Origin: a virus
Reading direction: 5' to 3' (one strand)
Virus record (IMG/VR): IMGVR_UViG_3300033141_005269
Location: 13,416-77,415 of that record
Length of the DNA: 64,000 nt
This document shows, piece by piece, positions 29,558-32,500 of this stretch; the first letter of the stretch is position 1, and the number at the start of each line of letters is the position of its first letter. Made by a program: the position numbers and the translations under genes. The notes beneath the pieces are model-generated. The model saw only the letters and a list, made by a program, of their open reading frames with translations, did no database searches and had not been told where the DNA came from.

Positions 29558-32500
29558 TTAAGCTGCAATCGCATCTTTTAATCCAATCGCTATTTTGCTG
29601 AGTGTTTTGCGATAATGAGGTTGGTGGAGTATCAACTGTTGAAGAAGTTTTATTAATTTCTGTCTTTTCATCGAAGTGCAAGTTATGACCAGAAATTCAG
29701 TTCGCATGGAAGACATTACATCGATGAGCGGAAAAGCTTTCTTCATATCCTTCGCTTTGCTGAGCCAACTCGCGAGCATAATCGCACTCATGTATTGAGC
29801 ATCGAACGCCAAGTTACGAAAGCTTTCTGGTTTCTTGATTAATTCGTTTATGTTGACTTGAGTTTTCATGAACGCTTGAAATTTGGCTCCAACTTCTTGC
29901 CCAACATATCCTTTTATATCATCTGGTGAATCAAAGCCTTCTTTCAATTCGAGAGCGAGCCAAGACCATGTTATGCCGGAAGCTTATAACTTCTCTCGGC
30001 ACGGGATATGGGTCAAGTGTCTCGCGTCTTCTCGGTGGCATCATTAGATAATTTTCGTCCTGAAATGCTATTTCCCGGCTATAAATGGTTTTCCCTTCTT
30101 TTTTGGCATTCATTCAAAAGTTTGAGAGCAACACCCTTTTTGATTTTAAGAAATGGAATTATCGACTCAAGAAAAATTATAATATCGGTCATACGTTGAA
30201 TTCGCCAGTTCCAACAAATGCCATATTTTCCATGTTTAGAACCATAAATGAATCCGCCGACCTTATCTTTCAGCCAAAGCATGATTTCCTTATTTTTATT
30301 TGCAATTCCTAAATGGTGTTGATAGCCCTTTATTTTGTCGAAATGACAATAACCTTCTCCATCAAAAAGACCAGCAATATAGAGGAGATCATCTTTGGGC
30401 GGAATTTTGATTGTTTGTTCGAATAGTTTCGGTTTTCTAGTCTTTAGTCCAATACTTTCCAAATATTCAGAAATTATCTTTCGATCGCGATGAAGAAATT
30501 TAGTAATTTGTCTTATCGTGAATCCTTTTGAATATAGTTTTCTAGCTTGCTCTTTTTCGGCATCTGAGAATTTTTTTCTTCGCCTTTTAATTTGATCCTC
30601 AAACTTCTTTAATACGCGAATTACAGTTGTAACCGCGCAACCAGATCTTTTAGCGATTTCCTCTAACGAAAGACCCTTTCTATAAAGTCTAAGGATCGAT
30701 TGATTACGCCTCGAAATTTCTGATCTTTTCTCTTTGGAAAGTTTCGGACTTCTTCTCATTTCATTTGGTAGAGTTTTCAAAATTCGCGAAAGAGTAGAAT
30801 GACCGATACCATATTTAGAAAGAATCTTTTTCCATTTAATTCCATTGATGTAATCGGAAACTATTGCTTTTCGGGTGTCCTCAGATAACTTCATTATTGC
30901 CACAATAATAAAAGAGGGAAAACTCACTTATAAACCTGTAGGAAAGCATATGTTCGCTTGTCCCAAGCATCGCCATATTTCTCATCCATCCACTTCCGCC
31001 AGTCATCTCAGCGGTTATAAGGAAAAGCCCACATATTCTTCTATTTCATTTATGACCATGGAAACTTTATCGCGTTTAATAACCAGATAAGGAAGAATTA
31101 GCTTCAAGATTTTGCCTACTTCAAGAAGAGGGTATTTCGCCCAAGCATAAACATTCTTTTTGGAGGTATATCCCGCTATTTGCTTGCCCTTTGGATCGGA
31201 AATTGTTATTCCGCCACCAAATCTACTTACTAGCCAAGACATGATATCTTTTGATGTATTATAAACAGAGAGTCTGACTTCTAAAGTTTCTTTTTTCCAA
31301 CGTTTCCGTCGTTGAGTTACTAACGAACCCTCGCCATCGAATAAACCTGCAAAGTAAATTAAATCTTTTTCTGGAATATTATTCCTCATCACTGGATGTT
31401 TGAATCGATGGCGGGTTATTCCATGCTTTTCAAGAATATATAAAATCGTAGTGTTCGAGACTCCAAGTTGACGCGCAACCTCTTTGGCATTATGGCAAGC
31501 TAAATAAAGGCGAATTACTTCCTCTTCATTAAGTTTAGATTTAAATTTTTTCGCTCGGAGTTTCCATGACATCTATTTCAACCATAAGAAAGTAGTGGGC
31601 GGTAACTTATAACCTTTACTGTTGGTGGTTGGATGCGAATGATTTTAAATCGCGAGGCTAACGGGGCAGAAATTAAATGTGCAATGCTGGAATGTTCAGG
31701 GGCATTGCCCGCTGCGATAACCATAGTTCCAGAACTGAATTGAACAAAGCCCGCTAGATGGTCAAGAATTACTGGATAGCTAGCAGCTTCGACATCGGGC
31801 CTATTAATTTGTGTGAATTCGTCCGCGAATAGTATTCCAGAAGTGCATGAATGCAACACAGCCCAAGCGATTCGCCGGAAGGCTAAACCTCAGCCAAATT
31901 TTCTATTATAATACTCGACTAGGATAGGATACTTTTCTTCAAGAAATCTTATTACTTTTTCCGCTTGCTTTCGCTTTACGATTAGATATGGCAAAACCGA
32001 TTTTAGAATGATGTAAGCCTTGAACCGATCATAAGTTTGCCAATGATAAACTATTTCTTGATGGAAAGAATAAGGCTTTGAGGCGTAATAATTAGATCCA
32101 AATTTCTTCTTCAGCCATTCAGCTAACTCTTTCGAGGTATTTGCAACTCGCACGCCTATTCGCCTTTGATAATCCCGTCCCTTCCATTTATCGAATTTGA
32201 TATTGCCATCAGCATCAAGCATACCCGCAAAATAAATTAAGGAATCTTTGTCTGGTAACTCGAAATTTTTAATAAACGGTCTTCTCGTCTTCGGCTTAAT
32301 CAAGCCAAGTCTAATTGCTGTCATCCTTACACAAGCGGAAGAACATCCTATAATCTCTGCAATTTGTTTATAAGTTAAATTCGAAGTAATTAAGAACTCC
32401 TTGATTTTGTTTACTTTGAACTTATCTAGTCGGTTCATAATAGGAAATATAGCCTCATGGGATTTAAACCCTCCTGTGGCTCGTAGAATGAAGTATGATT

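What the first reader, a model, noticed from the sequence alone, without database searches (positions are those of the whole stretch)
29973..29994. 22-nt micro-intron splits the sensor-2 arginine codon
Seen: AGAAGUUAUAAGCUUCCGGCAU forms a perfect BHB (GCCG/CGGC, bulges AGA and AUA, 5-bp inner stem). It accounts exactly for the frameshift between PYPVPR and TWSWLA. Annotation pipelines would call this a sequencing error or pseudogene. It retains GUUAUAAG, as at the 5' end of intron 2, so I infer it is the remnant of an endonuclease intron. Its persistence implies splicing is functional and required for the ATPase.
Basis: seen in the sequence. Interest (0 to 1): 0.85.

Follow-up and report, generated by a model that had tools for sequence, protein, structure and literature searches.

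The report
tRNA-type mini-intron in viral ATPase gene
A 22-base insert in an ATPase gene of a tailed, probably archaeal, virus has the shape that archaeal tRNA-splicing enzymes cut; relatives carry the same insert or none at that exact spot, so the virus very probably needs host splicing to make this protein.

Summary
On the minus strand, 29994..29973 reads AGAAGUUAUAAGCUUCCGGCAU. It sits in a MoxR/NorQ-like AAA+ ATPase gene of a 77-kb tailed virus.

- **Junction:** eight uninterrupted homologs align with residue n ending at 29994 and n+1 starting at 29971, so exactly 22 nt are extra, inside the invariant PR[T/S]W motif.
- **Fold:** a 4-bp helix (GCCG/CGGC) lies between two 3-nt bulges, with a 5-6 bp inner hairpin. 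Cutting after the second bulge base gives the homolog junction. A random 22-mer does this about 1 in 10^4-10^5 times.
- **Relatives:** one contig has a 24-nt version at the same site, with a compensatory G-C to C-G change in the helix. Three more database proteins stop at the same point. Other relatives are empty there.
- **Selection:** the downstream exon is under strong purifying selection (dN/dS 0.06).
- **Context:** ten further inserts of the same architecture break this two-gene module here and in relatives.

Best reading: an archaeal bulge-helix-bulge intron removed from the viral mRNA by host EndA and RtcB (about 0.87). No RNA data could be obtained. "Remnant of an endonuclease intron" and "sensor-2 arginine" are plausible but unproven. 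This scan has noted similar mini-introns on other DNA. The papers I could search confirm mRNA splicing of this type only for cbf5.

The parts
29973..29994 (-). 22-nt micro-intron I4 (AGAAGUUAUAAGCUUCCGGCAU)
   Evidence: Exactly the extra bases between homolog residues n (ends 29994) and n+1 (starts 29971). BHB geometry. A 24-nt ortholog in L003.
29997..30000 (-). Exon-side strand (GCCG) of the central 4-bp helix
   Evidence: Pairs with 29978-29975. G30000 is the silent third base of a Val codon and covaries with intron base C29975: G-C here, C-G in L003.
29975..29978 (-). Intron-side strand (CGGC) of the central 4-bp helix
29994..29996 (-). 5' bulge AGA; predicted cut between 29995 and 29994
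   Evidence: The cut after the second bulge base gives the homolog junction. The rule is as stated in PMC2738675.
29972..29974 (-). 3' bulge AUA; predicted cut between 29973 and 29972
29979..29993 (-). Inner hairpin GAAGU(U)-AUA-(A)GCUUC
   Evidence: In L003 the fifth pair is C-G instead of U.G.
29995..30070 (-). Exon 4 of the ATPase gene (...AFQDENYLMMPPRRRETLDPYPVP-R)
   Evidence: tblastn of homologs; BHB junctions.
29558..29972 (-). Exon 5 (TWSWLALELKEGF... to the stop codon), the C-terminal helical domain
   Evidence: 74% identical to P0001 residues 113-249. Purifying selection.
30071..30937 (-). Intron I3, 867 nt, with an HTH + LAGLIDADG-like ORF
   Evidence: Helix UCCU/GGGA, bulges ACA/AAU. 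The join YAFL-L-AFQD matches P0001.
30938..31006 (-). Exon 3
31007..31615 (-). Intron I2, 609 nt, with an HTH + LAGLIDADG-like ORF
   Evidence: Helix CAGU/GCUG, bulges AAA/AGA, inner stem 9 bp. The join PPTV-N-DW matches P0001.
31616..31870 (-). Exon 2 (Walker B, sensor 1)
31871..32475 (-). Intron I1, 605 nt, with an endonuclease-like ORF
   Evidence: Helix AGCC/GGCG (one mismatch), bulges ACA/AAU, inner stem 8 bp. The join YEP-L-AWAV matches L001.
32476..32824 (-). Exon 1 (Walker A)
28480..29239 (-). Intron I5, 760 nt, with a LAGLIDADG ORF, in the neighbouring metallopeptidase-VWA gene
   Evidence: Helix UGAC/GUCA, bulges AGA/AAA. The join NLVT-D-SLNND matches L001.
27332..29531 (-). Partner gene (DUF2201_N metallopeptidase-like + VWA); the start coordinate is approximate
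   Evidence: Pfam; synteny with L001.

Best explanation
The 22 nt are an archaeal-type bulge-helix-bulge (BHB) intron in the pre-mRNA of a viral MoxR/NorQ-like AAA+ ATPase. In the transcript, exon bases GCCG pair with intron bases CGGC. Two 3-nt bulges (AGA, AUA) flank this 4-bp helix, and a 5-6 bp hairpin closes the intron. The host tRNA-splicing endonuclease (EndA) cuts after the second base of each bulge, and the host RNA ligase RtcB joins the exons. The join restores ...PYPVP-R-TWSWLA..., the invariant PR[T/S]W motif, and with it the C-terminal domain. Unspliced mRNA yields only a truncated protein. Shown here: the geometry, the exact junction, empty and occupied alleles, one compensatory change, and selection on the downstream exon. 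Inferred: the enzymes, the archaeal host, and that splicing happens at all, since there are no RNA data.
For: 1. **Junction.** P0001 and eight full-length homologs are colinear across the site, with exactly 22 nt extra.
2. **Geometry.** A canonical BHB sits in the register that reproduces the junction. By chance this happens about 1e-5 to 2e-4 of the time.
3. **Ortholog.** L003 carries a 24-nt insert at the same site: CCCG-AGA-hairpin-CGGG-AUA. Helix pair G-C becomes C-G through a silent Val third base plus an intron base. All 9 counted pairs are kept.
4. **More occupied alleles.** P0014, P0018 and P0019, from other contigs, also stop at ...PYPVPREAF.
5. **Empty alleles.** L001, L002, P0016, P0022 and P0023, the full-length homologs and all 15 distant genomic homologs lack the insert.
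6. **Selection.** dN/dS between L003 (occupied) and L001 (empty) is 0.064 downstream of the site and 0.057 upstream. Window versus L003, both occupied, gives pS 0.82 and pN 0.22.
7. **One mechanism fits both alleles.** The window insert shifts the frame. The L003 insert is in frame but contains a UAA stop.
8. **Same architecture elsewhere.** It occurs at five further homology-defined junctions in the window's two-gene module (I1, I2, I3 and I5). It also occurs in mini-inserts of 34, 35, 20 and 28 nt in L001/L003.
9. **Not self-splicing.** There is no group I or group II signal.
10. **Cut rule.** Cleavage between the second and third bulge bases is the published rule (PMC2738675).
Against: There is no RNA evidence. 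The host is unknown, and the virus encodes neither EndA nor RtcB. The outer helix is only 2 bp. The minimum-energy fold pairs part of the 3' bulge instead of leaving it free; the isolated BHB conformer is -8.5 kcal/mol against an MFE of -16.8 for 61 nt. Covariation rests on two DNA sequences only. In archaea translation can start on nascent mRNA, so unspliced transcripts may also be translated.
Confidence: 0.87

Rival explanations
1. Inactivating indel: the 22 nt are a mutation or insertion scar that has killed the ATPase gene (a pseudogene).
For: Unspliced, the frame ends about 20 codons later. Gene callers output only fragments (P0015, P0017).
Against: The downstream exon is under strong purifying selection in lineages that carry the insert. 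The insert itself is conserved with a compensatory change. It folds into a BHB in the exact register. Ten other frame-breaking inserts of the same design sit in the same genes, and all exons are intact.
Confidence: 0.04
2. Translational recoding: ribosomes hop over or shift frame across the 22 nt, as in T4 gene 60 bypassing, or by programmed frameshifting.
For: A hairpin lies inside a short coding gap. cbf5 introns were once mistaken for frameshift sites (PMC2738675).
Against: There are no matching take-off and landing codons: AGA versus AUA. In the window no stop codon follows the take-off codon. A frameshift would leave about 7 extra residues inside the invariant PR[T/S]W motif. The L003 allele is in frame but contains UAA, so it would need a different recoding event. 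The long introns in the same gene cannot be bypassed.
Confidence: 0.04
3. Split gene: the ATPase is made as two polypeptides, with exon 5 translated on its own from an internal start codon.
For: An ORF with a TTG start at 29947 covers most of exon 5.
Against: No ribosome-binding motif precedes that TTG. The invariant R-T-W would be separated or lost. L003 has no start codon nearby. Conservation runs right up to the junction.
Confidence: 0.03
4. Assembly or sequencing artefact.
For: It is a single metagenome-derived contig, and the reads could not be inspected.
Against: A homologous insert stands at the same site in an independent JGI contig and is implied in three ENA contigs. Artefacts do not form precise BHB motifs with covariation.
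Confidence: 0.01

Closest known systems
BHB intron in cbf5 pre-mRNA of Crenarchaeota (Watanabe 2002; Yoshinari 2006; Yokobori 2009, PMC2738675)
   Same: A short tRNA-type intron inside a protein-coding sequence. The cut falls between the second and third bulge bases. It often breaks the reading frame. It is present or absent depending on lineage. It is removed by the tRNA-splicing endonuclease.
   Different: Here the gene is viral, not cellular. The intron is one of four in the gene, and three of those carry endonuclease ORFs. Relatives have mini-introns at other sites. This motif is close to canonical, whereas most cbf5 motifs are relaxed. Splicing is not confirmed by RNA.
Archaeal tRNA introns (hBHBh' motif; 11-175 nt according to PMC2738675)
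   Same: Same geometry and size range, and presumably the same enzymes.
   Different: The substrate is an mRNA with no tRNA body. The outer helix is only 2 bp.
Archaeal rRNA BHB introns carrying LAGLIDADG homing endonucleases (from established knowledge, e.g. I-DmoI and I-PorI type; PMC4496867 appeared in search but was not read)
   Same: Its larger neighbours I1, I2, I3 and I5 combine a BHB boundary with a LAGLIDADG/HTH ORF. I4 shares 8-mers with the termini of I1 and I2.
   Different: I4 has no ORF, and the host gene encodes a protein.
12-bp putative introns in the rudivirus SIRV1 (Peng et al., as cited in PMC2738675)
   Same: Short inserts that appear and disappear in the protein genes of an archaeal virus.
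   Different: Those inserts are in frame, have no demonstrated BHB, and may simply be translated. This one breaks the frame and has a BHB.
T4 gene 60 translational bypass, and HAC1/XBP1 unconventional splicing
   Same: Both remove a short coding gap non-spliceosomally. HAC1/XBP1 also uses an endonuclease plus a tRNA ligase.
   Different: The bypass signals are absent (see rivals). HAC1/XBP1 use IRE1 and twin stem-loops, not a BHB.

Membership tests
Archaeal BHB (tRNA-type) intron | Two 3-nt bulges on opposite strands separated by a 4-bp helix | tested here: met
   GCCG/CGGC with bulges AGA and AUA. The same holds in L003 with CCCG/CGGG.
Archaeal BHB (tRNA-type) intron | Cleavage after the second base of each bulge gives the functional junction | tested here: met
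   The predicted join equals the junction seen in nine uninterrupted homologs. The rule is from PMC2738675.
Archaeal BHB (tRNA-type) intron | Flanking helices h (outer) and h' (inner) | tested here: inconclusive
   The inner helix is 5-6 bp. The outer helix is only 2 bp. The MFE fold prefers to extend the central helix over the 3' bulge.
Archaeal BHB (tRNA-type) intron | Helices maintained by covariation | tested here: met
   One compensatory pair (G-C to C-G) and one U.G to C-G change. All 9 counted pairs are kept. Only two DNA sequences are available, so there is no statistical power.
Archaeal BHB (tRNA-type) intron | Intron absent from mature RNA (spliced junction or circular intron observed) | not testable with these tools
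   No sequencing run was listed.
Archaeal BHB (tRNA-type) intron | Host supplies EndA and RtcB | not testable with these tools
   The host is unknown. The virus has neither PF01974 nor PF01139. The nearest named homologs come from Nitrososphaerota/Thermoproteota MAGs.
Group I / group II self-splicing intron | Ribozyme core detectable | tested here: not met
   No Rfam hit at the gathering score or at E<=1 across 28300-33000. At 22 nt the insert is too short.
Programmed translational bypass (T4 gene 60 type) | Matching take-off and landing codons, and a stop codon after take-off | tested here: not met
   AGA versus AUA, and the next codon is GAA.
MoxR/NorQ/CbbQ-type AAA+ ATPase (the host gene) | Walker A/B and sensor 1; MoxR-like fold; adjacent VWA partner | tested here: met
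   Motifs in alignment A2. Pfam AAA and AAA_5. Top Foldseek hits are NorQ and CbbQ, with TM-score about 0.6 on the target. A DUF2201/VWA gene lies next door.
MoxR/NorQ/CbbQ-type AAA+ ATPase (the host gene) | The interrupted Arg is the sensor-2 arginine | tested here: inconclusive
   The Arg is invariant (P253 R254 W256 in A2) and lies at the N-terminus of helix 253-264 in the model. No residue-level superposition on a solved MoxR was done.

The most novel reading that the evidence does not exclude
The 20-35-nt inserts are a distinct class of ORF-less mobile mini-introns. They would derive from endonuclease-bearing BHB introns, or be mobilised by them. They would spread among conserved sites of viral genes and persist because they plug homing-endonuclease target sites. 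This would make expression of a whole viral gene module depend on, and possibly be timed by, the host's tRNA-splicing machinery. Points in favour: all six mini-introns with DNA in hand follow one design (exon S-C-S-G, then A-N | A-G...C, then a G+C-rich 4-mer that pairs with the exon 4-mer, one mismatch in the 34-nt insert, then A-N |); at least nine insertion sites occur in one 390-codon gene; occupied and empty alleles are found among relatives about 90% identical; and short and long alleles are seen at the intron-2 site.
Probability: 0.3. Interest if true: 0.9.

Novelty: new variant of a known kind. Interest (0 to 1): 0.72.

Why it matters
The papers I could search confirm BHB splicing of an mRNA for only one archaeal gene, cbf5. 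I found no paper describing such introns in viral protein genes.

Here a virus appears to hand several of its genes to the host's tRNA-splicing enzymes. The case comes with a natural series of alleles: endonuclease-bearing (long), mini, and empty.

- **Annotation.** These genes are currently called as fragments or pseudogenes.
- **Intron evolution.** The allele series bears on the homing cycle, that is, how mobile introns invade, decay and are lost.
- **Virus-host dependence.** Making this protein would require the host's tRNA-splicing machinery.
- **Enzymology.** The 22-nt insert is a natural minimal substrate for EndA/RtcB outside a tRNA.

Tried and rejected
- **RNA evidence.** The look-up of sequencing runs on 29400-32900 listed no run, so read laying could not be used.
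- The DNA behind P0014, P0018, P0019, P0013 and P0016 could therefore not be fetched, and their inserts are known only as translated protein.
- **Viral contigs.** Searches with exon 5, P0001 and P0002, and with a pattern for the mini-intron, found nothing.
- **Virus relatives.** The genome search does not draw relatives for a virus record.
- **Motif-only scans.** BHB scans of the window gave no enrichment over shuffled or Markov sequence: 852 against 894, and 25 against 18. One scan timed out. The motif alone is not diagnostic.
- **Sensor 2.** The PDB sequence search aligned only the Walker A to sensor 1 region, and Pfam found no lid-domain family. Sensor 2 could not be assigned by sequence.
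- **Host.** The large terminase is at most 27% identical to any deposited phage or virus, which gives no clue to the host.
- **Virus-encoded enzymes.** EndA and RtcB were not found in the virus.
- **Self-splicing introns.** Group I and II introns are rejected.

Full report
**Setting.** The window is bases 13416-77415 of a 77,415-bp IMG/VR virus record with direct terminal repeats. It encodes a large terminase and a Mu-type portal protein, so it is a tailed virus. Its terminase is at most 27% identical to any deposited phage or archaeal virus.

On the minus strand between 32824 and 29558 lie pieces of an AAA+ ATPase gene. A metallopeptidase-like/VWA gene follows it. An AlphaFold model of a full-length homolog has mean pLDDT 83. 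Its best matches among solved structures are NorQ and CbbQ, which are MoxR-type ATPases that work with VWA partners. "MoxR-like" is therefore a fair label.

**The observation.** The minus strand 29994..29973 reads AGAAGUUAUAAGCUUCCGGCAU. Upstream, the frame reads ...RRRETLDPYPVPR, then runs into the insert and stops about 20 codons later. TWSWLALELKEGF... follows in a different frame.

The closest database relative is P0001, 250 aa, from a JGI metagenome contig. It reads ...DPYPVPRTWTWLALE... without any break. tblastn places its residue 112 (the Arg) at 29996-29994 and residue 113 at 29971-29969. Eight full-length homologs of 373-396 aa behave the same way. Exactly 22 nt are extra, and no residue is lost or gained.

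In the family alignment, P253, R254 and W256 are invariant. The insert therefore sits inside the most conserved motif of the C-terminal half.

**The fold.**
- GCCG (30000-29997, exon) pairs with CGGC (29978-29975, intron).
- AGA and AUA are 3-nt bulges on opposite strands.
- GAAGU(U)/(A)GCUUC forms the inner stem.
- Two pairs (U-A, G-C) form a short outer stem.

This arrangement has both bulges 3' of the central helix strands, as in pre-tRNA. Cutting between the second and third bulge bases is the rule quoted in PMC2738675. It gives GUGCCGAG|AACAUGG, which is the homolog junction.

In a simulation, random 22-mers at this fixed site met the helix-plus-stem requirement at 2e-4 (lenient rule) down to about 1e-5 (as observed).

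There are caveats. RNAfold's minimum-energy structure keeps the 5' bulge, the 4-bp helix and the hairpin. But it pairs the first two bases of the 3' bulge with the upstream GU, and the overall z-score is only -1.3. Motif-only scans of the window are not enriched over random sequence. The evidence lies in the coincidence of motif and junction, not in the motif alone.

**Alleles in relatives.**
- L001 and L002, which are JGI contigs, are empty at the site: CCGAGG|ACUUGG.
- L003 is another JGI contig, about 92-96% identical in protein to L001. It carries an insert at the identical position: CCCG-AGA-GAAGC-GUUUUAA-GCUUC-CGGG-AUA. It is 24 nt long and contains an in-frame UAA.
- Compared with the window, the outermost pair of the 4-bp helix has changed from G-C to C-G. 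This needs a silent change in the Val codon (GUG to GUC) together with a change in the intron (CGGC to CGGG).
- The fifth inner pair goes from U.G to C-G.
- All nine pairs counted are maintained, and sliding one strand destroys the pairing.
- Three further proteins from ENA contigs (P0014, P0018, P0019) also end ...PYPVPREAF.
- P0016, P0022 and P0023, and all 15 distant homologs in archaeal and bacterial MAGs, are uninterrupted at this site.

**Selection.** Downstream of the site, L003 (occupied) against L001 (empty) shows 22 synonymous and 7 non-synonymous differences. That gives dN/dS 0.064, the same as upstream (0.057). The window against L003, both occupied, has synonymous sites saturated (pS 0.82) and pN 0.22. 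The exon after the insert is therefore being translated in lineages that carry the insert.

The window's insert shifts the frame. The L003 insert is in frame with a stop codon. Removal at the RNA level explains both alleles, whereas no single recoding mechanism does.

**The company it keeps.** Three other breaks in the ATPase gene and one in the VWA gene are defined independently by homology to L001 and P0001. At each, the same rule holds.

| Intron | Length (nt) | Central helix | Bulges |
|---|---|---|---|
| I1 | 605 | AGCC/GGCG (one mismatch) | ACA/AAU |
| I2 | 609 | CAGU/GCUG | AAA/AGA |
| I3 | 867 | UCCU/GGGA | ACA/AAU |
| I5 | 760 | UGAC/GUCA | AGA/AAA |

These four carry HTH/LAGLIDADG-type ORFs and give no group I or II signal.

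The relatives lack all of these introns but have mini-inserts of their own.

| Insert in L001 | Shared with L003 | Location | Central helix | Inner stem |
|---|---|---|---|---|
| 34 nt | yes | Walker A loop; removal gives GPPGIGKS | CCGG/CCGA | 10 bp |
| 35 nt | yes | APE\|DL | CCGG/CCGG | 7 bp |
| 20 nt | yes | NRPD\|VE | CCCG/CGGG | 4 bp |
| 28 nt | locus not covered by L003 | VWA gene | GCCG/CGGC | 8 bp |

Database fragments indicate further break points after PEHS, VILD and LALE. They also show a 30-33-nt in-frame insert at the intron-2 site. That makes at least nine sites in a gene of about 390 codons.

**Mechanism.** By analogy with tRNA, rRNA and cbf5 introns, host EndA would cut the two bulges and RtcB would join the exons. 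The virus encodes neither enzyme. The nearest named homologs of the ATPase are in Nitrososphaerota/Thermoproteota MAGs. PMC2738675 reports that crenarchaeal hetero-tetrameric endonucleases recognise such motifs outside a tRNA context. That the host is such an archaeon is inference.

- *GUUAUAAG.* It is shared with the 5' arm of I2. It occurs 6 times in the window against 2.05 expected, and three of the six lie in I4 or the I2 arms. L003 has a one-mismatch version.
- *CUUCCGGC.* I also found this 8-mer at the 3' ends of both I4 and I1.
- *Reading.* These hints fit a common origin of the intron termini. No long allele was found at this site, so "remnant" remains a reasonable hypothesis.
- *Sensor 2.* The label fits the invariance and the helix-start position but was not tested at residue level.

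**Novelty.** In the searchable literature, BHB splicing of an mRNA is confirmed only for cbf5. Putative 12-bp introns in SIRV1 are the nearest viral precedent. I found no report of BHB introns in viral protein genes. Earlier notes of this scan describe similar mini-introns in other viral and Asgard genes. Those are unchecked leads, not evidence.

**Verdict.** It still lacks RNA proof.

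Noticed in passing
L001:2842-2875, 3079-3113, 3243-3262 (also in L003): The relatives' ATPase gene lacks all four window introns. It has three other BHB mini-inserts of 34, 35 and 20 nt at different sites, one of them inside the Walker A loop. Removing each restores colinearity with the window.
   Followed up: yes
L001:5422-5449: A 28-nt BHB mini-insert (GCCG/CGGC, bulges AAA/AUA, 8-bp stem) breaks the VWA partner gene of the relative. Removing it gives SRKHPNLPGSIRYTIPK, which matches the window's uninterrupted sequence.
   Followed up: yes
P0014, P0018, P0019 (protein only): At the site of the window's 609-nt endonuclease intron I2 (PPT[IV]|N|DW), these relatives carry a variable in-frame insert of 10-11 residues (KATRSSCSRR, RATRRSSCSRR, KATRKSCSRR). 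This probably represents a 30-33-nt mini-intron, i.e. a short allele of a site that is long in the window.
   Followed up: partly
P0013/P0026, P0025, P0016/P0024 (protein only): Called proteins of further relatives diverge abruptly after ...NAPEHS, ...YPVILD and ...TWTWLALE. This suggests three more insertion sites in the same gene.
   Followed up: no
window 29973-29994; L001 and L003 mini-inserts: All six mini-introns with DNA in hand share one design. The exon ends in S-C-S-G (an all-G/C helix in a 39% G+C genome) followed by A-N. The intron starts A-G, its inner stem closes with C, and a G+C-rich 4-mer that pairs with the exon 4-mer (one mismatch in the 34-nt insert) plus A-N follows. This could reflect insertion-site preference or a stability requirement.
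   Followed up: partly
window 31600-31615 and 30922-30937 (- strand): Introns I2 and I3 start almost identically (AGGUUAUAAGU and AGGUUUAUAAGU) and both encode HTH + LAGLIDADG-like ORFs. They are probably paralogous mobile introns.
   Followed up: partly
L002:40-50: An in-frame TAG replaces a conserved Glu codon near the end of this 1.2-kb contig, and the first ~20 bases are divergent. This is likely a contig-end error. L002 also lacks the 20-nt insert found in L001 and L003.
   Followed up: no
window 7-2076 (+): A 689-aa ORF contains a LAGLIDADG_3 domain at residues 169-219. It may be an intein or a fused endonuclease in another gene.
   Followed up: no
window 28507-28610 (-): A weak RAGATH-33 match (24 bits against a gathering score of 120; E 0.086) lies inside intron I5. 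It is probably chance.
   Followed up: no
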